Source: Candidatus Limnocylindrales bacterium
GTDB taxonomy: Bacteria > Chloroflexota > Limnocylindria > Limnocylindrales > CSP1-4
Reading direction: 5' to 3'
DNA length: 64,000 nucleotides
Assembly: GCA_036278755.1 (NCBI GenBank)
Contig: DASUKL010000114.1
Location: forward strand, 7,659 to 71,658
The notes under the pieces were generated by a model. That model was given only the letters and a program-made list of their open reading frames with translations. It was not told the DNA's origin and did no database searches. Made by a program: the position numbers and the translations under genes. Of the stretch, positions 30,709 to 57,949 are shown in pieces; within the stretch, counting starts at the first letter, position 1, and the number at the start of each line of letters is the position of its first letter.

Positions 30709-30837
30709 CGGCCGGGAGTGTAGCACCGGCCTCTTGGCCCACCCTTCACCCCGACTCGACCGGCTCTTCACCCCGCGGGGCGGGCGCCGGGCCGGCGAGG
30801 ACGGCTCCCGCCCGGTGCTCAGCCTGGGGATCCGGGC

Positions 30838-46466: not shown

Positions 46467-47531
46467 TCAGGTGGCGGCGACCACGGGCAGGGGCACGTGG
46501 GCCAGGAGGCGCTCCAGGACGGTGGCGGCGGTGGCACCCCGTAGTTGGCGGTCGAGATCGAGCACCAGGCGGTGACCCAGGACGGCCGGGGCAAGGGCCC
46601 TGACGTCGTCGGGCCGGACGAAGTCCCGACCGTCGAGCAGGGCCCAGGCCTGGCTGGCCCGGTAGAGGCCCACGGCCGCCCGCGGGCTAGCGCCCAGGCG
46701 GACGTCGGGGTCCTCGCGCGTGGCCCGCACGAGGTCCACGACGTAGCCCTCGACGTCGTCGCTGACGGCGATGGAGCGGGCCCGCTCCCGGAGCTGCAGC
46801 ACGTCGGCCCGGGGCATCACGGCGCCGATGCCTTGCAGCGGTTCAGCCGCGACCTGGTAGCGTCGGGCGATGGCCCTCTCAGCGTCGCGCAGCGGGTAGC
46901 CCAGCGTGGCCTGGACCAGGAAGCGGTCCAGCTGGGCCTCGGGCAGGGCGAAAGTGCCCTCCAGCTCGATGGGGTTCTGGGTGGCCACGACGAGGAAGGG
47001 CTCGTCGAGCGGCCGGGTCTGGCCGTCGACGGAGACCTGGTGCTCCTGCATCGCCTCCAGCAGGGCGGCCTGGGTCCGCGGCGTGGCCCGGTTGACCTCG
47101 TCGACGAGGAGCACGTTGGTGAAGATCGGCCCGGGCACGAAGCGGAAGGCGGAGCCCTCAAGGATGCTGCTGCCGGTGACGTCAGTGGGCAGCAGGTCGG
47201 GCGTGCCCTGGACCCGGGCGAAGTCGAGATCGAGGGCCGCCGCGAAGGCCCGGGCGAGCAATGTCTTGCCCACCCCGGGCACGTCCTCGACGAGCGCGTG
47301 GCCGCCGGCCAAGAGGGCCACGGCCAGGAGGCGAAGGGCGGGCTCCGCGCCCACGACCGCTAGGCCGACGGCCTCCCGGAGCGCGCTCCAGGCACGCGCC
47401 CCGGTGGCGGTCTCAGTCGTTGTAGAGCCGCTCCTCGATGAGCTTCTCCTGGACCGTCCGACCGTTGGGGTCGAAGCAGGCGAACTCGAAGTGCTTCTCG
47501 TACTCGAGGTCCACGTTGTCCTGACCGCCAC
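46467..47531 (-). CDS. MoxR-family AAA+ ATPase (start uncertain; only in-frame start is the GTG at 47531, overlapping the upstream gene by ~118 nt)
   Basis: LLAGGHALVEDVPGVGKT (Walker A), LLVDEVNRATPRTQAALLEAMQE (Walker B/sensor). Expected start ~47420 has no canonical initiation codon. Confidence 0.85.
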   Translation of the reverse strand: MAVRTTWTSSTRSTSSSPASTPTVGRSRRSSSRSGSTTTETATGARAWSALREAVGLAVVGAEPALRLLAVALLAGGHALVEDVPGVGKTLLARAFAAALDLDFARVQGTPDLLPTDVTGSSILEGSAFRFVPGPIFTNVLLVDEVNRATPRTQAALLEAMQEHQVSVDGQTRPLDEPFLVVATQNPIELEGTFALPEAQLDRFLVQATLGYPLRDAERAIARRYQVAAEPLQGIGAVMPRADVLQLRERARSIAVSDDVEGYVVDLVRATREDPDVRLGASPRAAVGLYRASQAWALLDGRDFVRPDDVRALAPAVLGHRLVLDLDRQLRGATAATVLERLLAHVPLPVVAAT

Positions 47532-48507
47532 GGTTCTTCTCCACCGTCAGGACGGTCCAGTCGCGGAACCGCTGGGCCTGGTACGGGTTGAACTCGATGT
47601 TCACCTTGGCCACGATGTTGTACTTCTCGTTGAGGATGGTGATGATGTCGGCCTCGTAGTTGATGGCCGACGAGCCGCGCAGGTGATGGTTGCGCAGGCG
47701 CGAGGCCTTGAGTCCCTCCTTGTCGGCCGCGACGATCGAGACCATCGGCACGTCCTCGGTGAGGGCCAGGTCCTTGAGGCCGTTGACCACGACCGTGACC
47801 TTCTCCGTCTCGCTGGCGGGCTCGGGCAGGACGGGCACCTTCTGGAGGTAGTCGATCAGGACGAAGAGGCGGCGGTCGCCACTCAGGTCCTGGTGCTGGC
47901 GGATGAGCGTGCGCAGGTTGTCCACGGTGCTGGCCGTCTGCGAGCCACGCATGAGGAACAGGTTCTGGCCGTAGCGCGCCAACCGGTCGAGGGAGGGGCG
48001 GAGACGCGGGTTGTTGGCCAGCTGCTGGCCGTTCATCGTGCCCTCGGCCATCCATGTGCCGAGGATCTCCTGGCGCACGTCCTGGACCTTGATGGCCCCG
48101 GTCTTGTGGGGCAGATGGGCCAGCGCCGACTCCATCGAGATGAGGCGGTTGAGGAGGTACTCCTCATCGTGCTCGAAGCAGATGTAGAGCACGTTGGCCT
48201 GGCCGCCGGAGGCCACGTTACGGGCCATCTGGAGGGCCATGGTCGTCTTGCCCGTGCCCTGGGCGCCGCCCATGAGGAGCAGCTCGCCGCCGCGCAGGCC
48301 GCCGCCGATGGTCTTGTCCAGGGGCGTGAAGCCCAGCGGCACCGGCTGGTACTGGCCGGACTTGCCCGAGGTCACCACGTCGTTCAGGTTGATGAGCACG
48401 TCCAGCGCCGAACGCGGGTTCATGCTCCCGCCGTCAGTCACGAGGCGCCATTCCGCGGAGGACGCGGAGGATGGGGCGGCCGCAGGCTCGATCTCGGGTA
48501 CGGTCAT
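47413..48507 (-). CDS. Stand-alone RecA-superfamily ATPase resembling the DnaB helicase C-terminal domain / single-domain KaiC
   Basis: PLGFTPLDKTIGGGLRGGELLLMGGAQGTGKTTMALQMARN...LYICFEHDEEYLLNRLISMES...LFVLIDYLQKV. Noticeably lower GC and a K/N/I/Y-richer composition than its neighbours. Confidence 0.75.
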   Translation of the reverse strand: MTVPEIEPAAAPSSASSAEWRLVTDGGSMNPRSALDVLINLNDVVTSGKSGQYQPVPLGFTPLDKTIGGGLRGGELLLMGGAQGTGKTTMALQMARNVASGGQANVLYICFEHDEEYLLNRLISMESALAHLPHKTGAIKVQDVRQEILGTWMAEGTMNGQQLANNPRLRPSLDRLARYGQNLFLMRGSQTASTVDNLRTLIRQHQDLSGDRRLFVLIDYLQKVPVLPEPASETEKVTVVVNGLKDLALTEDVPMVSIVAADKEGLKASRLRNHHLRGSSAINYEADIITILNEKYNIVAKVNIEFNPYQAQRFRDWTVLTVEKNRGGQDNVDLEYEKHFEFACFDPNGRTVQEKLIEERLYND

Positions 48508-48619
48508 CGGCGCGAAGTCCCCTCAGCGACAGCTGGCTGGAGGGCGATGATAGCATCGGGCCGCGTCAGAGGAAGGTGCCTAAGCCACCAAATCCGCACA
48601 GCCGGGCGGCTCCGTCGGC

Positions 48620-50139: not shown

Positions 50140-52137
50140 TCAGGCGGGGCTGGGCGACGGCTTGGGGGCCGGCGCCGTGACCGGCGGGGCGGGCATCTGG
50201 CGTGGCGTCAGTCCGGGCTCCAGGGGTCGCGGCGTGGGGCCGCCCTGCTGGCGCGGGTCGGGGATGTCGGCGAAGAGGCCCTCGAACGCTTCGCGCTCGA
50301 CCGTCTCCTCGGCCACCAGCTTCTCGGCCAGCGTCACGAGGCGATCCTTGTACCTCGTCAGGACGTCCATAGCCCGGGCATAGCCCCGGTCGATGATGGC
50401 CCGCACCTCTTCGTCGATGACCTTGGCCACATCGTCGGAGTAGTTGCGCTGCTCGCCGATCTCACGACCCAGGAAGACGAGCTCGTCGCGCTTGCCGAAG
50501 CTCAGCGGGCCGAGCTTCTCGCTCATGCCGAACTCGGTCACCATGCGGCGGGCCAGGTTGGTCGCCTTCTCGATGTCGTTCGAGGCGCCGGTCGTGGTGT
50601 CGCCGAAGATGAGCTTCTCCGAGGCGTTGCCCCCCAGCAGGCCGGCGATCTTGTCCTCGAACTCCGTCTTGCTCTGGAGATAGCGGTCCTCGGAGGGCAG
50701 GGCCATGGTGTAGCCCAGGGCCATGCCCCGGCTGATGATCGTCACCTTGTTGACCGGATCGCACTTGGGCAGGATGCGCTGGACCACGGCGTGACCGCCC
50801 TCGTGGTAGGCGATGATCGCCTTCTCCTCGTCGGAGATGATGCGGCTCTTCCGCTCGGGCCCGGCCACGACGCGCTCCAGGGCCTCGCTGAACTCGGTCG
50901 TGCCGATGACCTTCTTGTTGCGCCGCGCGGCGAGGATGGCCGACTCGTTGACGAGGTTGGCCAGGTCCGCCCCGGAGAAGCCCGGCGACTGGCGGGCGAT
51001 GACCTGCAGGTCGATGGACTTGTCGAGCGGCTTGCCTTTGACGTGGACCTTGAGGATCTCCAGGCGGCCTTTCATGTCCGGCCGATCGAGGATGACTTGG
51101 CGATCGAAGCGGCCGGGCCGCAGGAGCGCCGGGTCGAGGACGTCCGGTCGGTTGGTGGCAGCCACGACGATGACGTTCGTGTTCGTGTCGAAGCCGTCCA
51201 TCTCGACCAGGATCTGGTTGAGGGTCTGCTCGCGCTCGTCATGGGACCCGCCGAGGCCGGCGCCGCGCTGGCGGCCGACCGCGTCGATCTCGTCGACGAA
51301 GACGATACAGGGGCTGTTGCGCTTGGCCTGGTCGAAGAGGTCGCGGACGCGGCTGGCGCCGACGCCCACGAACATCTCCACGAACTCGGAGCCGGAGATG
51401 CTGAAGAACGGCACCCCGGCCTCGCCCGCGACGGCCCGGGCGAGGAGGGTCTTCCCGGTGCCTGGCGGCCCGACCAGCAACACGCCCCGCGGGATGCGGG
51501 CCCCCAGCGAGTTGAACTTCTCGGGGTATTTGAGGAACTCGACGACCTCCTGGAGCTCCGTCTTGGCCTCATCCACGCCGGCCACGTCGTTGAACGTGAC
51601 GACGGTCTTGTTGCCGAGGAACATCCGGGCCCGACTCTTGCCGAAGCTCATGGCCTGGTTGTTGGTGCCCTGGGCCTGGCGGAACATGATGAACAGGAAG
51701 GCGCCGATGACGACGACCGGCAGGACGGTCATGAGCAGCAGGCCCAGCCACTGGCTGGTCTGGGACTCGGGCTGGGCGAAGAGGGGCGGGATGCCGTTGG
51801 TGCAGGAAGCGCCCGGCTCGGCGCAGGCGGCCTGCATGTCGTCGGTCACGCCCTCCCCCAGGCTGCCCGGCACTTCGCTCTGGACTTCCGTCTGGCCGTC
51901 GGCCAGGGCCGAGGTCAGGGTGATGTCCAGCTGCGTGCCCTGCTGGACGACCTTGGCCACCTTGCCCTCCTTGACGAGGTCAAGGAAGGAGGTGACGCTG
52001 CCGGCGCCCGAGCCGGTGCCGGCGTAGGGGATCGTCGCTGTCTGGGGAGGGGTGAAGACGGTGATGAACAACAGCACCGCGATGCCCATCACCAGGATGA
52101 GCGTGACGATGCCATTGCGGAGGAAACGGGTATTCAA
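50140..52137 (-). CDS. ftsH: ATP-dependent zinc metalloprotease FtsH
   Basis: N-terminal TMs, AAA module ([32 protein letters not shown]), SRH, HEGGHAV zinc site. Apparent TTG start at 52137 with GGAGG upstream. Confidence 0.92.
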
Positions 52138-52312
52138 GGGATGCGAGCCTCCGGAGGCGAGGTCAGCGCCGACCGTGCGGACGCGATGCCGGCAGGCTGA
52201 TTATAGGTCGGCCGCCTGACCTGCCCTGTGGTACGCAAGGACCAGGGGGTCCGGATTGTCGGGTGGCAGGCCGCCGTGACCGCACCGGCAGCGACTGCGA
52301 AGGCTTCAGGGT

Positions 52313-52387
52313 TGGTAGCGGAGGGCGGATTCGAACCACCGACCAAGGGCTTATGAGTCCCCTGCTCTACCACTGAGCTACTCCGCC
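52313..52387 (-). tRNA. tRNA-Met (anticodon CAT), CCA encoded
   Basis: Reverse complement GGCGGAGTAGCTCAGTGGTAGAGCAGGGGACTCATAAGCCCTTGGTCGGTGGTTCGAATCCGCCCTCCGCTACCA folds as a cloverleaf: 7-bp acceptor (G1-U72), D arm GCTC/GAGC, anticodon loop CTCATAA, T arm GGTGG/CCGCC. Initiator versus elongator (or Ile-CAU) not resolved. Confidence 0.8.
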
Positions 52388-52449
52388 GCGGTCGCCGATT
52401 CTAGCCTGGAAGGCCGGATGGCTGCCACCCGTGGCTCGTCCGCCTGGGT

Positions 52450-52558
52450 CCGGGGGGCGGTGCCGCCGGGCGTGACGATCGGGGGCTGGGCCGGGGGGCC
52501 GTGCCGCCGGGCGTGACATTCGGGGGCCGGGCCGGGGGGCCGTGCCGCCGGGCGAGAC
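52450..52558. repeat. 41-bp tandem direct repeat, ~2.7 copies (CGGGGGGCCGTGCCGCCGGGCGTGACATTCGGGGGCCGGGC)
   Basis: Copies at 52450-52490, 52491-52531 and a partial at 52532-52558, differing at 4-5 positions. Each contains GGGCGTGAC / GGGCGAGAC. Confidence 0.7.
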
Positions 52559-52667
52559 AAGCGCCGAACGGACCGCCGCTTGGCAGGCGGATGGTGCGCC
52601 GGGCGTGACGGAGGACCGCTGGAGCGCCCCGCGGTCTCGCGTGGCGTGACGCACGACCGTCGGCGCG

Positions 52668-52770
52668 CCGGCCGATCACCACTTGTACCGCGGAGCGTGA
52701 CAGGGCGGCGCGGGCGCCGGCGGCCGATCACCACTTGTACCGCGGAGCGAGACAGGGCCGGCCGGGGCGC
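52668..52770. repeat. 51-bp direct repeat, 2 copies (GGCCGATCACCACTTGTACCGCGGAGCG[T/A]GACAGGGC)
   Basis: Copies at ~52668-52706 and 52719-52757. Continues the ~41/51-bp periodic GCGTGAC/GCGAGAC motif series (8 occurrences from 52471 to 52779). Confidence 0.6.
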
Positions 52771-52805
52771 GTGACGCAGCCCATGTACGCCGCCCAGGCG
52801 TTCCC

Positions 52806-53315
52806 TCAGGGGCCGAAGAGGAGGTCGAGCCAGGCTCCCAGCGGCGTCGCGGGGGCCGGCCTGGTGGCCCGGGCGCCGAGCGGGGTGATCGGTCGAGGCG
52901 ACGGTGCGTCGGAGGCCAGGGCGAAGGGCCGTTCTCCGGGGGCACCCACGCCGTAGGCTCGGGCCTGGAGGTGGATGAAGGTCTGGCTCTGAACGGTGGC
53001 GAGCTCGGTCTGCTCCTCGGCCAGGCGCTCCTCCTGCACCGCGTTGGCCGCCCGGAGCTGGGCGGCGTGGGCCTGGGCGGCCGAGGTCGTGGCCACGGCC
53101 CGGCCGAAGATGAAGATGATCCAGGCCATCAGCAGGAGGCCGACCACGAGCGCCGCCTGGCGAGCGTGGAGGCCGATGATCGGCGGGGCGACGAACGGGG
53201 GTCGAGGGCCGCCTCCCTGATCCTGCGGACCGCCGCTCGGCGGCCCTGTCGGGGAGGTTCCGCGGCCGCGGCTCCCGGAGGTTCGGCGCGGCAGCGGCGC
53301 GGGTCGCGCATCCAT
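52806..53315 (-). CDS. Septum-formation initiator family protein (FtsB/DivIC-like) with Pro/Gly-rich N-terminal extension
   Basis: Single TM (ALVVGLLLMAWIIFIFG) followed by a coiled coil (AAQAHAAQLRAANAVQEERLAEEQTELATVQSQ). Confidence 0.6.
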   Translation of the reverse strand: MDARPAPLPRRTSGSRGRGTSPTGPPSGGPQDQGGGPRPPFVAPPIIGLHARQAALVVGLLLMAWIIFIFGRAVATTSAAQAHAAQLRAANAVQEERLAEEQTELATVQSQTFIHLQARAYGVGAPGERPFALASDAPSPRPITPLGARATRPAPATPLGAWLDLLFGP

Positions 53316-53324
53316 CGGCGCGAT

Positions 53325-53344
53325 GCTAGCTGCGCGCAGCTAGC
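53325..53344. promoter_or_regulatory. Perfect 20-bp palindrome GCTAGCTGCGCGCAGCTAGC in the divergent divIC-like / helicase intergenic region
   Basis: 10+10 nt perfect inverted repeat with no spacer, 10 bp upstream of the divIC-like start codon. Confidence 0.35.
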
Positions 53345-53409
53345 GCTGTCAACCGCCGGCCGGATCTCCCCGCCCTTGACGACCGGTCCGTCCGTGGTAG
53401 GCTCGAAAG

Positions 53410-53423
53410 CGAACGTCCGTTCG
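53410..53423. promoter_or_regulatory. Candidate LexA (Cheo-type) SOS box CGAAC-GTCC-GTTCG overlapping the promoter of the MrfA-like helicase gene
   Basis: Perfect GAAC-N4-GTTC dyad 4 nt upstream of the GGAGG Shine-Dalgarno sequence and 14 nt upstream of ATG 53437. Confidence 0.45.
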
Positions 53424-53436
53424 TTTCGGAGGATCG

Positions 53437-55737
53437 ATGCGCCTCTACGCTCCGGCCCCCACCGAGCATGCCGTCGAGCAGCTGCTGTCCGATCCCGCCT
53501 TCCGGGCAGCGGTGGTCGCGGATCGGCTGGTGCCTGCTCGGCAGGCTGCCCTGGCCCCCTTCCCGGCCTGGCTCGATCCACGGCTGGTGGCGGGCCTCCG
53601 GGCCCAGGGGATCGAGGCCCTCTACAGCCATCAGGCGGAGGCCATGGAGGCCTTGCGGGCAGGGCTCGACGTGACCGTCGTCACGGCCACCGCCTCGGGC
53701 AAGTCGCTGTGTTACGACCTCCCGGTCCTCCAGGACGTAGCCCAGGATCCGGCCGTCCGGGCCCTCTACATCTTCCCCACCAAGGCCCTCAGCCAGGACC
53801 AGGCCGCCGGCCTGCACGAGCTGGCTCGGGCCGCCGGCATCGACCTGGCCGCGGCGGTCTACGACGGCGACACGCCGGCCCCCGTCCGCTCCTCGATCCG
53901 GGCCGCCGGGCAGGTCGTGCTCACGAACCCGGACATGCTGCACGCCGCGATCCTGCCCCACCACACCAAGTGGTTCCAGCTCTTCGAGCAGCTGCGCTAC
54001 ATCGTCATCGACGAGGCCCACACCTACCGCGGCGTCTTCGGCAGCCATGTGGCCAACGTCATCCGCCGGCTGCTGCGTCTGTGTGCCCACTACGGCTCCG
54101 CGCCGCGGATCGTCACCTGCTCGGCCACCATCGGCCGGCCCGACGCCCTCGTCGAGCGCCTCACCGGCCGGCCCAGCCGGGTCATCGAGCGGGACGGATC
54201 GCCGGCCGGCCCCCGCCGCATCCTGGTCATCGACCCGCCCCTCCTCGACGAGCGCCTAGGGCTGCGACGCGGGACGTTCGGCTTCGTCGAACAGGCCGCC
54301 CTGACCTTCATGCGGGCCGGACGCCAGACGCTGGTCTTCGGTCGCTCCCGCACCTCGGTCGAGCTGCTCCTGAGCCGGCTCCGGGAGGCCCTCCGCGAGG
54401 GTCACGGGCCCTCGGAGCGAATCCGCGGCTACCGCGGCGGCTACCTGCCCACGGAGCGGCGGGCCATCGAGGCCGGCCTGCGCGACGGCTCCCTGCTGGG
54501 CGTGGTGAGCACGAACGCCCTCGAGCTCGGCGTCGATATCGGCCGCCTCGACGCCGCGGTGCTGGCCGGCTACCCCGGCTCGATCGCCGCCACGTGGCAG
54601 CAATTCGGGCGGGCCGGACGGCGTGGCGAGGCCAGCGTGGCCATCCTCGTGGCCACGGGTGGCGCCGTCGATCGATTCGTGGCCCGTCATCCGGACTACC
54701 TCTTCTCCGCCTCACCCGAGGAAGCCCGGCTCGACCCCGACAACCTCCACGTGCTGCTGGCCCACCTGCGGGCGGCCACGTTCGAGCTGCCCTTCGCCCC
54801 AGGCGAGCGCTTCGGCGACCAGCCGGCCGACGAGCTGCTGGCCTTCCTGGCCGAGGAGGGCCATGTCCGCCAGGCGGGCGACGGACGCTGGTACTGGGCC
54901 AGCGAGAACTTCCCCGCCTCGGAGATCCCCCTGCGTACGAGCGCCACGGAGAACGTGGTCATCATCGACCAGGGCCCCCTGGGCCGAGGCGCCCGACCCG
55001 CGGTCATCGGCGAGGTCGACCTCTTCAGTGCCCCGACCCTCGTGCACCAGGGCGCCATCTACCTCCACGAGGCACGCCAGTACCACGTCGAGCGGCTGGA
55101 CTGGGAGGAGCGCAAGGCCTATGTCCGGCCCGTCGACGTCGACCACTTCACCCAGGCCGAGGCGGCCATCACCCTGAAGCCGCTGGAGACGTTCGCCACG
55201 GCCCCGGGGCCGGGCGGCGAGCGGGCCCACGGCGAGGTCATGGTCAGCTCCCTGGCCACGATCTACAAGAAGCTGCGCCTGGAGACCCTGGAGAACCTGG
55301 GTTGGGGGCGGATCCACCTGCCCGAGATCGAGTCGCACACGACCGCCTACTGGCTGGCGGTGGACCCGGCGGCGGTGGCTGGCTGGCGCCGCGATGCTCT
55401 CGACGCGGCCCTCGTGGGCGCGGGGCGGGCCATGCGGACCGTGGCCTGCGTCCTGCTGATGAGCGACCCACGGGACCTGGGCCTCGTCAGCCAAGTCCGC
55501 TCGCCGCACTTCGAGCGGCCGGTCATCTATCTCTATGACGGGGTGCCCGGCGGGGTCGGCCTCTCGAACCGGCTCTTCGCCCGCCACGCCGAGCTCGTGG
55601 CGGGCGCCCGGGCGCTGGTCGACGACTGCCCCTGCAGCGGCGGCTGTCCGGCCTGCATCGGGCCGCGAGTGGAGGCCGGAGGGGAGGCCAAGGCCGGCAC
55701 CGGGCGCCTGCTGGCGCTCTTCGCCGCGGGGTCGTGA
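53437..55737 (+). CDS. DEAD/DEAH-box helicase with C-terminal DUF1998 zinc-binding domain (MrfA/YprA-like DNA repair helicase)
   Basis: Motif I TATASGKSL, DEAH (VIDEAHTYRG), SAT (CSATIG), motif VI QQFGRAGRRG. C-terminal DUF1998 with DDCPCSGGCPACIGP four-Cys cluster. Confidence 0.85.
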   Translation: MRLYAPAPTEHAVEQLLSDPAFRAAVVADRLVPARQAALAPFPAWLDPRLVAGLRAQGIEALYSHQAEAMEALRAGLDVTVVTATASGKSLCYDLPVLQDVAQDPAVRALYIFPTKALSQDQAAGLHELARAAGIDLAAAVYDGDTPAPVRSSIRAAGQVVLTNPDMLHAAILPHHTKWFQLFEQLRYIVIDEAHTYRGVFGSHVANVIRRLLRLCAHYGSAPRIVTCSATIGRPDALVERLTGRPSRVIERDGSPAGPRRILVIDPPLLDERLGLRRGTFGFVEQAALTFMRAGRQTLVFGRSRTSVELLLSRLREALREGHGPSERIRGYRGGYLPTERRAIEAGLRDGSLLGVVSTNALELGVDIGRLDAAVLAGYPGSIAATWQQFGRAGRRGEASVAILVATGGAVDRFVARHPDYLFSASPEEARLDPDNLHVLLAHLRAATFELPFAPGERFGDQPADELLAFLAEEGHVRQAGDGRWYWASENFPASEIPLRTSATENVVIIDQGPLGRGARPAVIGEVDLFSAPTLVHQGAIYLHEARQYHVERLDWEERKAYVRPVDVDHFTQAEAAITLKPLETFATAPGPGGERAHGEVMVSSLATIYKKLRLETLENLGWGRIHLPEIESHTTAYWLAVDPAAVAGWRRDALDAALVGAGRAMRTVACVLLMSDPRDLGLVSQVRSPHFERPVIYLYDGVPGGVGLSNRLFARHAELVAGARALVDDCPCSGGCPACIGPRVEAGGEAKAGTGRLLALFAAGS

Positions 55738-57110
55738 CCACCGAGCTGGCACGCCCGAGCCCGACGCTCGGGCCCATGGAGCCCACGGCCGCGTCCACCC
55801 TGGCCGCCCGCTTGACCCGGCTCCGAGCCCTGGACACCCGCCTGCGGCCGGCGTCCGAGCTGCCCCGCCCGGCGGCCCGCGCCCCGGCGGGTCCGCTCGT
55901 CGCTGCGGCGCGCCGCACCCGCCTGGCCGAAGCACTGGGGGGCAAGCTGCTGGACACCCCGGCGGGATCGATCGTGGTCGTCGAGCGCGACGTGCCCTTG
56001 CCCTTCGACCCGCTACCGCTCCGGGCGCTCCCCTTCCCCATCGACGCCGACCGGCCCCTGATCATGCTCGACACCGAGACGACGGGCCTGGGCAGCGGCG
56101 CCGGGACCCTGGCATTCTTGGTGGGGCTCGCCTCCTGGAGCGGGGATCGTCTCCATGTCCGCCAACTCTGGCTGGCCGACCAGCCCGAGGAGCCTGCCCT
56201 CCTCGACGCCCTGGCTGCCTCTCTGCCACCGGACGGCTGGCTGGTCACCTACAACGGGCGGGCCTTCGACTGGCCCCTGCTCATCACCCGCTACCGGCTC
56301 CAGCGCCGCAGCCCGCCCCCGCTGGCCGGCCATCTCGACCTCCTGCCGGTGGCCCGCCAGCTGTGGCGCCACCGCCTACCCGATGCCCGGCTGGCCAGCG
56401 TGGAAGCTGGCGTGGCGGGCGTGCGGCGAGGCACGGACCTGCCCGGAGCCCTCGTGCCGGAGCGGTTCCTGCGCTTCCTCCGCGATGGGGATCCGCGGCC
56501 CCTCGTGCCGGTCGGTGAGCACAACCGCCAGGACGTCATCTCCCTGGGTCTGCTGCTGGTCGTCCTGGCCGAGGTCCTGGCCCGGCCCGAGGGCCGGAGC
56601 CGGGCGGCGGCCGGCGACCTGGTCGGCCTGGGGCGCGCCTTCGAGCGAGCCGGCCAGGCCGCTGAGGCGCTGGCCTGCCACGAGGCCGCCCTGGAGCGCG
56701 CCGCTCCGCTCGACCGTAGGGACGGACGGGCCGTGGCCCGACCCGGTGGTCGGCTGCCGACCCTCGATCCGGCCCTCGAACGAGCCCGCCTGCTGCGCCG
56801 CATGGGTCGACGGAGCGAGGCCCTCGAAGCCTGGCGGGCCATCGCCGCCGAAGGCGGGCGACGAGCGATCGGGGCCTGGATCGCCGTGGCCAAGGAGCTC
56901 GAGCACGGAGCTCACGACCCAGCCGCGGCCCTCGAGGCGGTGCGCCAGGCCGAGCAGCTGCTGGCCCGCCGCCGGGCCCTCGGCCTCTTCTTCCGCGAGG
57001 CCGAGCGCGACCTGCCCTACCGCCGGGCGCGGCTCCTGCGGCGGCTGGCCTCGGCGCCGGCTTCGGCTCCGCCCGCGGCCCCAGCCTCCGCCTCGGTCGC
57101 CAGCGGGTAG
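55734..57110 (+). CDS. DEDD-type (RNase T/DnaQ-like) exonuclease with C-terminal TPR-like helical region (MrfB/YprB-like)
   Basis: Exo I motif LIMLDTETTGL, then YNGRAFDWPLL (Exo II-like) and H-x4-D (GEHNRQD). Alanine-rich helical C-terminus. GTGA overlap with the helicase stop. Confidence 0.7.
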   Translation: MTTELARPSPTLGPMEPTAASTLAARLTRLRALDTRLRPASELPRPAARAPAGPLVAAARRTRLAEALGGKLLDTPAGSIVVVERDVPLPFDPLPLRALPFPIDADRPLIMLDTETTGLGSGAGTLAFLVGLASWSGDRLHVRQLWLADQPEEPALLDALAASLPPDGWLVTYNGRAFDWPLLITRYRLQRRSPPPLAGHLDLLPVARQLWRHRLPDARLASVEAGVAGVRRGTDLPGALVPERFLRFLRDGDPRPLVPVGEHNRQDVISLGLLLVVLAEVLARPEGRSRAAAGDLVGLGRAFERAGQAAEALACHEAALERAAPLDRRDGRAVARPGGRLPTLDPALERARLLRRMGRRSEALEAWRAIAAEGGRRAIGAWIAVAKELEHGAHDPAAALEAVRQAEQLLARRRALGLFFREAERDLPYRRARLLRRLASAPASAPPAAPASASVASG

Positions 57111-57949
57111 AGCGGGACGCGGGGGTCAGGCGCCATGGTCGGCCAACGGTCGCGGACCCAGACCAGGTCGGGATCGTCGGTACAGGCCATCGTGCGCCGA
57201 TCGCCGGCCAGGACGTTGAGGTACCAGGCGTCGTAGCCATGGGTCGCCACGAAGGGGTGATAGCCGTCCGGGACGAGGACCGTGTCGCGGTCGCGGACCG
57301 CCCACAGGGCGTCGCGGGGCCCCCCGATCCGGCTGTCGGCCCGCCGGTAGAGGCGCTGCACGCCCCAGGCTCGCGGATCACGGAAGCGATAGTGGTAGAG
57401 CTCCTCGAGGACGGCCTCGGCGGGCATAGCGTCGACGTCGTGCTTGTGGGGCGGCCAGCTGGACCAGTTGCCCGAGGGCGTGAGCACCTCGACCGCCAGC
57501 AGGCGGGCGGCCGGGAAGTCGGGCTTGACGATGTGGTTGATCTGGCGCGTGGCGTTGCCCGCGCCGCGGATCTCCACCTCGACGTCGGCCGGTTCGATGA
57601 TGATGGGCACGCCGGCCCGACCGCGCGCACGTCCTGACTGGCCCGCGGCCGCACCGACCGGAGCGCGGCCGATGGCCACCTCCACGGCGGCGGAGCCAGC
57701 GGACGCACGACCGACCAATCGGCCCGCGGCGGCGGGCGGCAGGTAGACCGCGGTCGGCAGCCCGTCGAACGGTCCGCTGCGCCCGACCAGCTGGCGCCGG
57801 CGCCCGTCGAGGTCGAGGTCCAGGCCGCCGCCACCGATGACGACGACCAGGGCCTCATCGGCGGGCCCGGTCAGTGGCTCCAAGGGCTGCCTGTCGCCCA
57901 GCCGCAGCGTCTCGAAGCTCAGGTACCGCCAGCCGGCCTGCGCAGGGTC
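57017..57949 (-). CDS. iolB: 5-deoxy-glucuronate isomerase-like (IolB/KduI cupin family); both ends uncertain
   Basis: …GWRYLSFETLRLGD… N-terminus, cupin core (HKHDVDAMPAEAVLEELYHYRF...). Six-frame ORF over-extended to 58087. The 3' end overlaps the convergent mrfB-like gene by ~94 bp. Confidence 0.6.
   Translation of the reverse strand, partial: DPAQAGWRYLSFETLRLGDRQPLEPLTGPADEALVVVIGGGGLDLDLDGRRRQLVGRSGPFDGLPTAVYLPPAAAGRLVGRASAGSAAVEVAIGRAPVGAAAGQSGRARGRAGVPIIIEPADVEVEIRGAGNATRQINHIVKPDFPAARLLAVEVLTPSGNWSSWPPHKHDVDAMPAEAVLEELYHYRFRDPRAWGVQRLYRRADSRIGGPRDALWAVRDRDTVLVPDGYHPFVATHGYDAWYLNVLAGDRRTMACTDDPDLVWVRDRWPTMAPDPRVPLYPLATEAEAGAAGGAEAGAEASRRRSRARR

What the first reader, a model, noticed from the sequence alone, without database searches (positions are those of the whole stretch)
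53405..57110. MrfA/MrfB-like helicase-exonuclease pair preceded by a perfect GAAC-N4-GTTC SOS-type box
A DEAH helicase with a C-terminal DUF1998 four-Cys domain is followed, with a GTGA overlap, by a DEDD exonuclease with a TPR-like tail. This is the architecture of B. subtilis MrfAB (YprAB), a LexA-independent mitomycin-C repair pathway.

Here a perfect dyad CGAACGTCCGTTCG sits over the core promoter, 4 nt upstream of the Shine-Dalgarno sequence. This suggests that in this lineage the pair has been recruited into the LexA regulon. No lexA gene is in the window.
Basis: partly seen in the sequence, partly recalled or inferred. Interest (0 to 1): 0.65.

Follow-up and report, generated by a model that had tools for sequence, protein, structure and literature searches.

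The report
LexA-repressed MrfAB DNA-repair operon
A two-gene DNA-repair operon (MrfA helicase plus MrfB exonuclease) in an uncultured Chloroflexota (class Limnocylindria) bacterium carries, right at its promoter, the same operator found on that class's own lexA genes. It is therefore almost certainly a DNA-damage (SOS) inducible operon, which is a sound but fairly ordinary result.

Summary
CGAACGTCCGTTCG lies at 53410-53423, 6 nt after a predicted extended -10 and 4 nt before the Shine-Dalgarno sequence of mrfA (53437-55737). mrfA overlaps mrfB (55734-57110) by GTGA.

MrfA aligns full-length to B. subtilis MrfA (E=1e-238). MrfB matches the MrfB exonuclease core and keeps the DEDDh residues.

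The window comes from Chloroflexota, class Limnocylindria. In 78 of 79 orthologous loci from different species, a GAAC-N4-GTTC dyad with at most 1 mismatch lies at the mrfA promoter. Random 150-nt control stretches reach this in 5% of cases.

I recovered the class's own LexA. All 11 distinct lexA promoters sampled without bias carry a perfect box, mostly GAACATCCGTTC, between -35 and -10. The mrfA sites share even the ATCC spacer.

The LexA-operator reading is therefore well supported, although no binding or induction experiment exists.

"Recruited in this lineage" is not supported. Bacillales mrfA promoters carry the same kind of dyad: perfect in Paenibacillus, 1 mismatch in Peribacillus and Domibacillus, and degenerate in B. 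subtilis.

Verdict: a new member of a known kind, of modest interest.

The parts
53376..53381 (+). Predicted -35 hexamer TTGACG of the mrfAB promoter
   Evidence: Read directly from the sequence. It lies 16 nt upstream of the -10. TTGAC-like hexamers sit at the same place in many orthologous promoters. Predicted only; no transcription start data exist.
53395..53403 (+). Predicted extended -10, TGGTAGGCT (hexamer TAGGCT at 53398-53403)
   Evidence: It aligns with the strongly conserved TGCTAGACT/TGCTACACT of orthologous mrfA promoters. In 1.45 Mb of related sequence, 42 of 43 occurrences of TGCTA[GC]ACT lie upstream of mrfA.
53410..53423 (.). LexA-type operator (SOS or Cheo-type box) CGAACGTCCGTTCG, covering the expected transcription start
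   Evidence: A perfect dyad. It is conserved with at most 1 mismatch in 78 of 79 orthologous loci, against 5% of control stretches. The same motif sits on all 11 distinct Limnocylindria lexA promoters sampled. Arm changes are never compensatory.
53428..53433 (+). Shine-Dalgarno sequence GGAGGA of mrfA
   Evidence: Read directly from the sequence. It lies 3 nt before the ATG at 53437. The MR... start is conserved in the orthologues.
53437..55737 (+). mrfA: SF2 DEAH helicase of the YprA/MrfA family (766 aa)
   Evidence: Pfam domains DEAD, Helicase_C, WHD_HRQ1 and MZB. Full-length alignment to B. subtilis YprA/MrfA (6ZNP): E=1e-238, residues 12-752 against 7-740. Walker A at 85-90, DEAH at 192-195, CPCSGGCPAC at 731-740.
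55734..57110 (+). mrfB: DEDDh 3'-5' exonuclease with a helical (TPR-like) C-terminal tail (458 aa), overlapping mrfA by GTGA
   Evidence: Pfam RNase_H_2 at residues 111-276. E=3e-32 to the B. subtilis MrfB core, 8UN9. D113, E115, D179, H263 and D267 are invariant in 26 orthologues. TPR families hit 21 of 26 orthologues; the window protein scores E=0.017. mrfB follows mrfA in 73 of 80 loci. An RTGA overlap is present in 43 of 76 loci.

Best explanation
This is an SOS-regulated mrfAB operon. MrfA is a 3'-5' SF2 helicase with a zinc-binding MZB domain. MrfB is a DEDDh 3'-5' exonuclease with a TPR-like tail. The two genes are co-transcribed and probably translationally coupled through the GTGA overlap. 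By homology to B. subtilis MrfAB, they excise bulky adducts of the mitomycin-C type independently of UvrABC.

The proposed mechanism runs as follows.

- The promoter consists of TTGACG, 16 nt of spacer and TGGTAGGCT.
- It is followed 6 nt later by a 14-bp dyad that a LexA dimer binds, covering roughly +1 to +14. Bound LexA blocks RNA polymerase.
- After DNA damage, RecA bound to single-stranded DNA triggers LexA self-cleavage. The class's LexA keeps the Ala-Gly site and the Ser and Lys residues.
- The operon is then derepressed.

Shown here:
- the gene identities;
- the dyad and its class-wide conservation at the promoter;
- the identity of the motif with the operator on the class's own lexA genes.

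Inferred:
- the promoter hexamers and the transcription start;
- LexA binding and damage induction;
- the substrate of the repair enzymes.
For: Gene identity:
- MrfA aligns full-length to B. subtilis MrfA at E=1e-238.
- MrfB aligns to the MrfB core at E=3e-32 with the DEDDh residues kept.
- TPR families hit the tail in 21 of 26 orthologues.

Organism:
- The best hits are named Chloroflexota, Candidatus Limnocylindrales or Limnocylindria.

Conservation of the dyad:
- In 79 species-level orthologous loci plus the window, 17 sites are perfect, 62 have 1 mismatch and 1 has 2 mismatches. All lie within 150 nt of the mrfA start, mostly at -23 to -43.
- Random 150-nt stretches from the same loci give 0.27% perfect and 5.0% with at most 1 mismatch.
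- G1, C4, G9 and C12 of the dyad are invariant. Spacer position 1 is always a purine and spacer position 4 always a pyrimidine, as in the B. subtilis Cheo-box consensus known from the literature.

Link to LexA:
- The class's LexA was identified: P0174 is HEX4743981.1, 'LexA [Candidatus Limnocylindria bacterium]'. Many relatives carry the same name.
- Seven LexA clusters chosen without reference to any box gave 11 distinct upstream sequences. All have a perfect GAAC-N4-GTTC at -31 or -32, between TTGACA and the -10.
- The mrfA-derived matrix scores these sites at 23.6-30.4 bits, against a median of 26.5 bits for the mrfA sites themselves.
- 35 of 80 mrfA sites share the asymmetric ATCC spacer of the lexA operator.

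Operator-like position:
- The box keeps its place at the core promoter even where the promoter layout differs. It lies 10-15 nt after the -10 in most loci, and immediately before a GGTATCAT-type -10 in L037, L046, L063 and L079.

Literature:
- GAAC-N4-GTTC is the LexA motif of Firmicutes and Actinobacteria, with variants in Chloroflexi (PMC4951493).
Against: - No binding or expression experiment exists. The organism is uncultured.
- The lexA loci come from other Limnocylindria assemblies, not from the genome that holds this window, whose own lexA was not seen.
- The promoter hexamers and the transcription start are predicted. The window's -10 (TAGGCT) fails the tool's consensus scan.
- recA and uvrA promoters of the class could not be examined.
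- Most orthologous sites carry one mismatch in an arm, so affinity, and hence the degree of repression, may be modest in many species.
- The MMC-type substrate is extrapolated from B. subtilis. There, complementation by distant homologues failed.
Confidence: 0.85

Rival explanations
1. The dyad is the operator of a different transcription factor, not LexA, that happens to recognise GAAC-N4-GTTC. In that case mrfAB is not SOS-regulated.
For: No binding data exist. A second, unrelated palindrome (GTGACAG-N5-CTGTCAC) occurs in the same intergenic region in one subclade. Other regulators therefore probably act in this region.
Against: The same motif, including the ATCC spacer, sits inside the core promoter of every sampled lexA gene of the class. 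lexA autoregulation is the hallmark of LexA operators. The motif equals the experimentally defined LexA motif of related phyla. No regulator gene is conserved next to mrfAB; the conserved neighbour is a DivIC-like membrane protein.
Confidence: 0.06
2. The dyad acts as RNA: a 5'-terminal stem-loop of the mrfAB transcript that affects stability or translation.
For: If transcription starts near 53410, the mRNA would begin with a 5-bp stem and a 4-nt loop close to the Shine-Dalgarno sequence (sequence).
Against: Among the 80 sites, 63 have an arm change and none is compensatory. Sequence is conserved, not pairing. In L037, L046, L063 and L079 the dyad lies upstream of the -10 and would not be transcribed. 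On lexA promoters it lies between -35 and -10.
Confidence: 0.02
3. The dyad is a chance palindrome with no function.
For: Within the window alone, 2 sites against 0.2 expected is weak evidence. The second site, at 48410, is demonstrably a chance hit in coding sequence.
Against: 78 of 79 orthologous promoters keep it with at most 1 mismatch, although the flanking intergenic sequence has diverged. Only 5% of control stretches do so.
Confidence: 0.01
4. The pair is an anti-phage defence module of the YprA helicase family (DISARM, Druantia or Dpd-like) rather than a repair operon.
For: [quoted passage not shown] PADLOC models SngC, BrxH, DruE, DpdF and DrmA hit MrfA.
Against: The PADLOC hits cover only the generic helicase core (residues ~46-421) and score at most 144 bits, against 797 bits full-length to B. 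subtilis MrfA. MrfB has no PADLOC hit. No partner genes are nearby: the neighbours are a DivIC-like gene, a tRNA, FtsH, KduI, a TIM-barrel gene and a beta-lactamase. The locus is a syntenic core-genome region in 80 species. The cited survey places MrfB-associated helicases in the repair branch.
Confidence: 0.03

Closest known systems
[quoted passage not shown]
   Same: The two-gene order is the same: helicase, then exonuclease. MrfA aligns over its full length (E=1e-238) with the DExH core, winged-helix domain and four-Cys MZB domain. MrfB has the same DEDDh core and a TPR-type tail (PMC11194089, PMC7797055).
   Different: This locus has a 4-nt overlap where B. subtilis has a 15-nt gap. Motif II is DEAH rather than DELH. 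A perfect LexA-type box sits at the promoter, whereas B. subtilis has only a 2-mismatch relic, CAAACAAATATTCG, that has lost both invariant G's. The MrfB N-terminus and tail are Ala/Arg-rich and diverged.
LexA (Cheo-type) SOS boxes of Firmicutes and Actinobacteria, and of the Chloroflexi member Dehalococcoides
   Same: The core is GAAC-N4-GTTC, with a purine at spacer position 1 and a pyrimidine at spacer position 4. The box lies on or next to the core promoter, and lexA is autoregulated.
   Different: This class prefers the spacer ATCC and A/T-rich flanks (AAAC-GAAC ... GTTC-GGTT). In this class lexA heads an operon with an AlkZ-like glycosylase and dinB. I could not read the Dehalococcoides paper (PMC135389 is not held) and know it only through the citation in PMC4951493.
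Mycobacterium smegmatis SftH and other 'YprA-only' helicases
   Same: The same SF2 plus DUF1998/MZB helicase family (PMC3424565). The NCBIfam model TIGR03817 hits at 633 bits, below its cutoff of 874.
   Different: SftH-type genes lack the adjacent MrfB exonuclease. Here the exonuclease is present and overlapping.
YprA-family defence helicases (DrmA of DISARM, DruE of Druantia, DpdJ/DpdF)
   Same: They share the helicase core and, for some, the DUF1998 module.
   Different: This locus has no defence partners and no inserted domains. It is syntenic core-genome context, and it pairs with MrfB.

Membership tests
MrfA (YprA) helicase, criteria of Burby & Simmons (bioRxiv 10.1101/426304) | DExH-box SF2 helicase domain | tested here: met
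   Pfam DEAD (E=2.9e-30) and Helicase_C. Walker A TASGKS at 85-90, DEAH at 192-195, QQFGRAGR at 388-395.
MrfA (YprA) helicase | C-terminal DUF1998/MZB domain with four conserved cysteines | tested here: met
   Pfam MZB, E=1.2e-17, residues 664-741. C731, C733, C737 and C740 align with the CPCHDGCPSC cluster of 6ZNP.
MrfA (YprA) helicase | Full-length collinearity with the solved B. subtilis protein, including the winged-helix domain | tested here: met
   phmmer E=1e-238, residues 12-752 against 7-740. Pfam WHD_HRQ1 scores 27.0 bits, exactly at its cutoff.
MrfA (YprA) helicase | 3'-5' DNA helicase activity and a role in mitomycin C survival | not testable with these tools
   Requires biochemistry or genetics. 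The organism is uncultured.
MrfB (YprB) exonuclease | DEDDh catalytic residues conserved (the criterion of Burby & Simmons) | tested here: met
   D113, E115, D179, H263 and D267 are invariant in 26 orthologues and align to 8UN9.
MrfB (YprB) exonuclease | C-terminal TPR domain (PMC11194089) | tested here: inconclusive
   The window protein gives only TPR_12 at E=0.017, residues 297-333. In the orthologue set, 21 of 26 hit TPR_2 (best E=2.4e-7) and 18 of 26 hit TPR_12. No structure was predicted.
MrfB (YprB) exonuclease | Encoded immediately downstream of mrfA | tested here: met
   GTGA overlap in the window. mrfB is present in 73 of 80 loci. An RTGA overlap is present in 43 of 76 loci.
LexA (SOS) regulon member | The site matches the LexA operator of the same clade, as defined on lexA's own promoter | tested here: met
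   All 11 distinct Limnocylindria lexA promoters sampled without bias carry a perfect GAAC-N4-GTTC. The matrix built from mrfA sites scores them at 23.6-30.4 bits. The ATCC spacer is shared.
LexA (SOS) regulon member | The site overlaps the core promoter or the transcription start | tested here: met
   The box starts 6 nt after the predicted -10 in the window. In orthologues GAAC begins 10-15 nt after the -10, or the box directly abuts the -10. The promoter is predicted, not mapped.
LexA (SOS) regulon member | The site is conserved upstream of orthologues | tested here: met
   78 of 79 loci have at most 1 mismatch, against 5% of control stretches.
LexA (SOS) regulon member | LexA binds the site, and transcription rises after DNA damage in a RecA/LexA-dependent way | not testable with these tools
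   Requires EMSA or ChIP, and expression data.
   lexA is absent from the window, and the rest of the source genome is not available.
YprA-family defence systems (DISARM, Druantia, Dpd) | Conserved partner genes (DrmB/DrmC/methylase, DruH, dpd cluster) next to the helicase | tested here: not met
   The neighbours are a DivIC-like gene, tRNA-Met, FtsH, KduI, a TIM-barrel gene and a beta-lactamase. PADLOC hits are limited to the helicase core, and MrfB gives none.

The most novel reading that the evidence does not exclude
LexA control of mrfAB is ancestral to the lineages that use GAAC-N4-GTTC LexA boxes (Chloroflexota and Firmicutes), and B. subtilis, the only studied case, has largely lost it. 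In Limnocylindria the small SOS regulon would be built around lesions made by natural-product alkylating and crosslinking agents. Its visible members are a lexA-alkZ-like-dinB operon, mrfAB and a dnaB paralogue pair. That would make the SOS response of these abundant soil bacteria partly a defence against the genotoxic antibiotics of their neighbours.
Probability: 0.3. Interest if true: 0.5.

Novelty: new member of a known kind. Interest (0 to 1): 0.35.

Why it matters
- It gives a first, well-supported LexA operator (consensus about AAAC-GAAC-ATCC-GTTC-GGTT) and four candidate regulon members for Limnocylindria. This is an uncultured, widespread class with no experimental genetics.
- It adds MrfAB, known only as a mitomycin-specific repair pathway of B. 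subtilis, to the set of likely damage-inducible functions. I found no paper in the searchable library linking MrfAB/YprAB or DUF1998 helicases to LexA.
- The Bacillales comparison suggests the model organism is atypical. That can be tested directly in culturable Paenibacillus.
- It does not reveal a new kind of system.

Tried and rejected
- **lexA or recA near the finding.** tblastn with E. coli LexA and RecA, and later with Limnocylindria LexA, found nothing in the window or in the 80 mrfA loci. The motif had to be defined elsewhere.
- **More regulon members by matrix scan.** Scanning the 80 loci (1.45 Mb) with the mrfA-site matrix gave only one other strong site, upstream of an HNH-like ORF in L067.
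- **The promoter signature as a search handle.** I considered using TGCTA[GC]ACT plus the box to pull regulon members from metagenomes. I rejected this because 42 of 43 occurrences are mrfA itself.
- **Taxonomic assignment of lexA contigs.** Tetranucleotide similarity was uninformative because GC content and contig length dominate it. Exact look-up of cluster names solved the problem.
- **The second GAAC-N4-GTTC, at 48410.** I rejected it as an operator. It lies in conserved coding sequence and is absent from orthologues.
- **Alternative readings of the dyad and the pair.** I rejected the RNA-hairpin reading and the defence-system reading.
- **The Dehalococcoides LexA paper.** PMC135389 is not held.
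- **Literature links.** Searches for LexA together with MrfAB, YprAB, DUF1998, SftH or Rv3649 found nothing relevant.
- **Rfam.** Nothing in 52000-57500 except tRNA-Met.
- **Not attempted.** Structure prediction, which was unnecessary given the E=1e-238 match to a solved structure.

Full report
**1. What is in the sequence**

The elements, in order, are:

- TTGACG, 53376-53381
- 16 nt of spacer
- TGGTAGGCT, 53395-53403
- 6 nt
- CGAACGTCCGTTCG, 53410-53423
- TTTC
- GGAGGA, 53428-53433
- 3 nt
- ATG at 53437

The 766-codon ORF ends with TGA at 55735-55737. The next ORF starts with GTG at 55734, giving a GTGA overlap, and ends at 57110.

The window has 72.8% G+C, and both ORFs have third-position G+C of 0.86-0.92, as expected for real genes.

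Within the window, GAAC-N4-GTTC occurs twice against 0.2 expected. The count alone is not decisive. The second copy, at 48410, lies inside conserved coding sequence of a DnaB_C/KaiC-like ATPase and is absent from orthologues, so it is a chance hit.

**2. The two proteins**

MrfA:
- Pfam domains DEAD, Helicase_C, WHD_HRQ1 and MZB ('MrfA Zn-binding domain', formerly DUF1998).
- It aligns end to end with the crystallised B. subtilis YprA/MrfA (6ZNP): E=1e-238, residues 12-752 against 7-740.
- Walker A is at 85-90, DEAH at 192-195, and the four-cysteine cluster CPCSGGCPAC at 731-740.

MrfB:
- An RNase_H_2 (DnaQ-like) core.
- It matches the solved MrfB exonuclease core (8UN9) at E=3e-32.
- The DEDDh residues D113, E115, D179, H263 and D267 are invariant in 26 orthologues.
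- B. subtilis MrfB has a C-terminal TPR domain (PMC11194089). Here the tail gives only a weak TPR_12 hit (E=0.017). However, 21 of 26 orthologues hit TPR_2, with a best E of 2.4e-7.

Both published membership criteria are met.

PADLOC defence models hit only the generic helicase core, at 144 bits or less. MrfB gives no PADLOC hit, and no defence partners are nearby. The defence-system reading is therefore rejected.

**3. Organism and synteny**

The closest MrfA relatives are named Chloroflexota, Candidatus Limnocylindrales or Limnocylindria.

A scan of one genome per species returned 80 orthologous loci at 67-77% identity, nearly all labelled as Limnocylindria or unclassified Chloroflexota MAGs.

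- mrfB follows mrfA in 73 of 80 loci.
- An RTGA overlap is present in 43 of 76 loci.
- A small single-pass membrane protein is divergently transcribed from mrfA in 78 of 80 loci. It gives consistent sub-threshold DivIC/FtsB hits.

The rest of the window is ordinary chromosome: aspS, relA/spoT, murJ, topA, dprA, comM-like and ftsH.

**4. Phylogenetic footprint**

In the 79 loci with enough upstream sequence, plus the window, the best GAAC-N4-GTTC match within 150 nt of the mrfA start is:

| Match | Number of sites |
|---|---|
| Perfect | 17 |
| One mismatch | 62 |
| Two mismatches | 1 |

Most sites lie at -23 to -43. Random 150-nt stretches of the same loci give 0.27% perfect and 5.0% with at most one mismatch.

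The surrounding intergenic DNA has diverged freely, apart from the -10 element TGCTAGACT/TGCTACACT. In 1.45 Mb of related sequence that element is almost exclusive to this promoter, accounting for 42 of 43 occurrences.

Within the dyad, G1, C4, G9 and C12 are invariant. The spacer begins with a purine and ends with a pyrimidine, and the flanks are A/T-rich.

All 63 sites with an arm change are uncompensated, so it is sequence that is conserved, not pairing. This excludes an RNA or cruciform explanation.

**5. Is it the LexA motif of this clade?**

The literature places GAAC-N4-GTTC in Firmicutes and Actinobacteria, with variants in Chloroflexi (PMC4951493). That is only a lead.

No lexA or recA lay in the window or in the 80 loci. 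I therefore scanned the metagenome collection for CCGAAC-N4-GTTC followed at a suitable distance by DNA coding for G-[YFM]-P-P-x-x-R-E-I. This returned 120 loci, all carrying lexA.

After clustering, an exact look-up identified one family as 'LexA [Candidatus Limnocylindria bacterium]' (P0174 = HEX4743981.1). A sister family was identified as 'LexA [Chloroflexota bacterium]'.

That retrieval presupposed a box, so I then searched with P0174 alone.

All 11 distinct upstream sequences carry a perfect GAAC-N4-GTTC at -31 or -32, lying between TTGACA and a GGTAnnnT-type -10:

| Box | Number of the 11 sequences |
|---|---|
| GAACATCCGTTC | 7 |
| GAACATGCGTTC | 3 |
| GAACATGTGTTC | 1 |

None of the GAACATCCGTTC sequences would have matched my CCGAAC search pattern.

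The weight matrix built only from mrfA sites scores these lexA operators at 23.6-30.4 bits. The median for the mrfA sites themselves is 26.5 bits.

Thirty-five of the 80 mrfA sites even share the asymmetric ATCC spacer, in one orientation or the other.

The class's LexA keeps the Ala-Gly cleavage site and the Ser and Lys residues (sequence; my reading).

recA could not be reached.

**6. Mechanism**

In the window the box begins 6 nt after the -10, so it spans about +1 to +14. In most orthologues GAAC begins 10-15 nt after the -10.

In L037, L046, L063 and L079 the promoter has a different layout, and the box directly abuts a GGTATCAT-type -10. This is exactly the layout of the lexA promoters. 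A site that keeps its place on the core promoter while the promoter is rebuilt behaves like a repressor operator.

I infer the classical cycle. A LexA dimer occludes RNA polymerase. RecA bound to single-stranded DNA induces LexA self-cleavage. mrfAB is then derepressed.

The window's site is perfect, whereas most orthologues carry one mismatch. This suggests comparatively tight repression here.

**7. Not a peculiarity of this lineage**

I rebuilt the B. subtilis MrfA sequence from the alignment, searched with it and read five Bacillales mrfA promoters.

| Organism | Dyad at the mrfA promoter | Position |
|---|---|---|
| Paenibacillus chitinolyticus | AGAACAGCCGTTCT (perfect) | 5 nt after TATAAT |
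| Peribacillus | AGAACGCATATTCG (1 mismatch) | abutting GATAGAAT |
| Domibacillus | AGAGCGTTTGTTCG (1 mismatch) | abutting TTAAACT |
| B. subtilis and a related Bacillus | CAAACAAATATTCG (2 mismatches) | abutting GTAAACT |

In the B. subtilis group the dyad has lost both invariant G's.

The link between mrfA and a LexA-type box therefore spans two phyla. The B. subtilis site looks like a decayed operator. Whether this reflects common ancestry or repeated gain is open.

'Recruited in this lineage' is not supported as stated. The preprint I read shows independence from UvrABC and does not test LexA.

**8. Novelty and interest**

MrfAB, LexA boxes and SOS control of repair genes are all known. 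What is new is the link between them, together with a defined LexA operator for an uncultured class.

I found no paper in the searchable library connecting MrfAB, YprAB or DUF1998 helicases with LexA. That library is incomplete, and regulon databases were not searchable.

A specialist would find the result plausible rather than surprising. I rate it a new member of a known kind, with interest 0.35.

**9. Limits**

- Everything regulatory is comparative inference.
- The promoter elements are predicted. The tool's consensus scan finds only the divergent promoter.
- The lexA loci come from other assemblies of the class.
- The repair substrate is extrapolated from B. subtilis.

Noticed in passing
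window 52806-53315 (-), promoter 53323-53352, palindrome 53325-53344: A 169-aa protein is divergently transcribed from mrfA in 78 of 80 Limnocylindria loci. It has a single transmembrane segment and a coiled coil, and gives sub-threshold but consistent DivIC/FtsB ('septum formation initiator') hits in 8 of 10 orthologues. Its promoter is TTGACA, 18 nt, TAGCAT, then 7 nt to the ATG, which suggests a leaderless mRNA. A perfect 20-bp palindrome, GCTAGCTGCGCGCAGCTAGC, overlaps the spacer and the -10. The LexA box lies about 58 nt beyond its -35, so it is probably not LexA-controlled.
   Followed up: partly
window 48410-48421, inside ORF 47413-48507 (-): This is the only other GAAC-N4-GTTC in the window. 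It lies in the 5' coding part of a DnaB_C/KaiC-like ATPase gene, whose promoter-like TGCTATCAT is at 48547-48555. It is not conserved in 30+ orthologues, so it is a chance hit.
   Followed up: yes
L201-L222 (e.g. L201 10001-13022): In Limnocylindria, lexA heads a conserved operon: lexA, an AlkZ-like gene (PF06224, the family of interstrand-crosslink glycosylases) and dinB (IMS). lexA itself appears leaderless, with its start 7-9 nt after the -10.
   Followed up: partly
L201:4146, L205:5963, L206:4506, L207:1802, L208:1738: A LexA-type box (for example ACTCGAACGGACGTTCTAAC) lies about 27 nt upstream of the first of two tandem dnaB paralogues. One of the pair often carries an intein. The pair sits about 5 kb from lexA. 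A LexA-controlled replicative-helicase paralogue would be unusual.
   Followed up: partly
L067:14912-14931: This is the only other high-scoring box (28.7 bits) in the 80 mrfA loci. It lies 35 nt upstream of a 244-aa ORF with a Cys-rich N-terminus and an HNH-like C-terminus (HHRNG...N), possibly a mobile or prophage gene.
   Followed up: partly
L042, L048, L050, L052-L055, L059, L061, L064, L066, L068-L072, L074, L077, L078, L080: about 20-45 nt upstream of the mrfA -10: One subclade has a second conserved palindrome, GTGACAG-N5-CTGTCAC, between the divergent promoters. It is unrelated to the LexA box and may be the site of another regulator. It is unexplained.
   Followed up: no
L223-L228 (Bacillales mrfA loci), about -44 to -146 from the mrfA start: Cheo-type dyads sit at Bacillales mrfA promoters. 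The dyad is perfect in Paenibacillus chitinolyticus and has one mismatch in Peribacillus and Domibacillus. In the B. subtilis group it is a two-mismatch relic (CAAACAAATATTCG) abutting the -10. In P. chitinolyticus an acetyltransferase gene lies between mrfA and mrfB.
   Followed up: partly
window 52313-52387 (-): A tRNA-Met gene lies between ftsH and the DivIC-like gene. It explains the short, near-identical 'protein' matches of a spurious ORF across loci.
   Followed up: yes
window about 30717-30725 (-): The only TGCTACACT outside mrfA promoters lies just upstream of the topA start (MSRNLVIVESPAKARTI). An earlier count gave the reverse-strand index 33276 by mistake.
   Followed up: no
L081-L200: The metagenome scan returned lexA genes with CCGAAC-N4-GTTC boxes from many high-G+C lineages, including a Solirubrobacterales family. 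Several have two or three tandem boxes. This is a ready data set for comparing LexA operator layouts.
   Followed up: no
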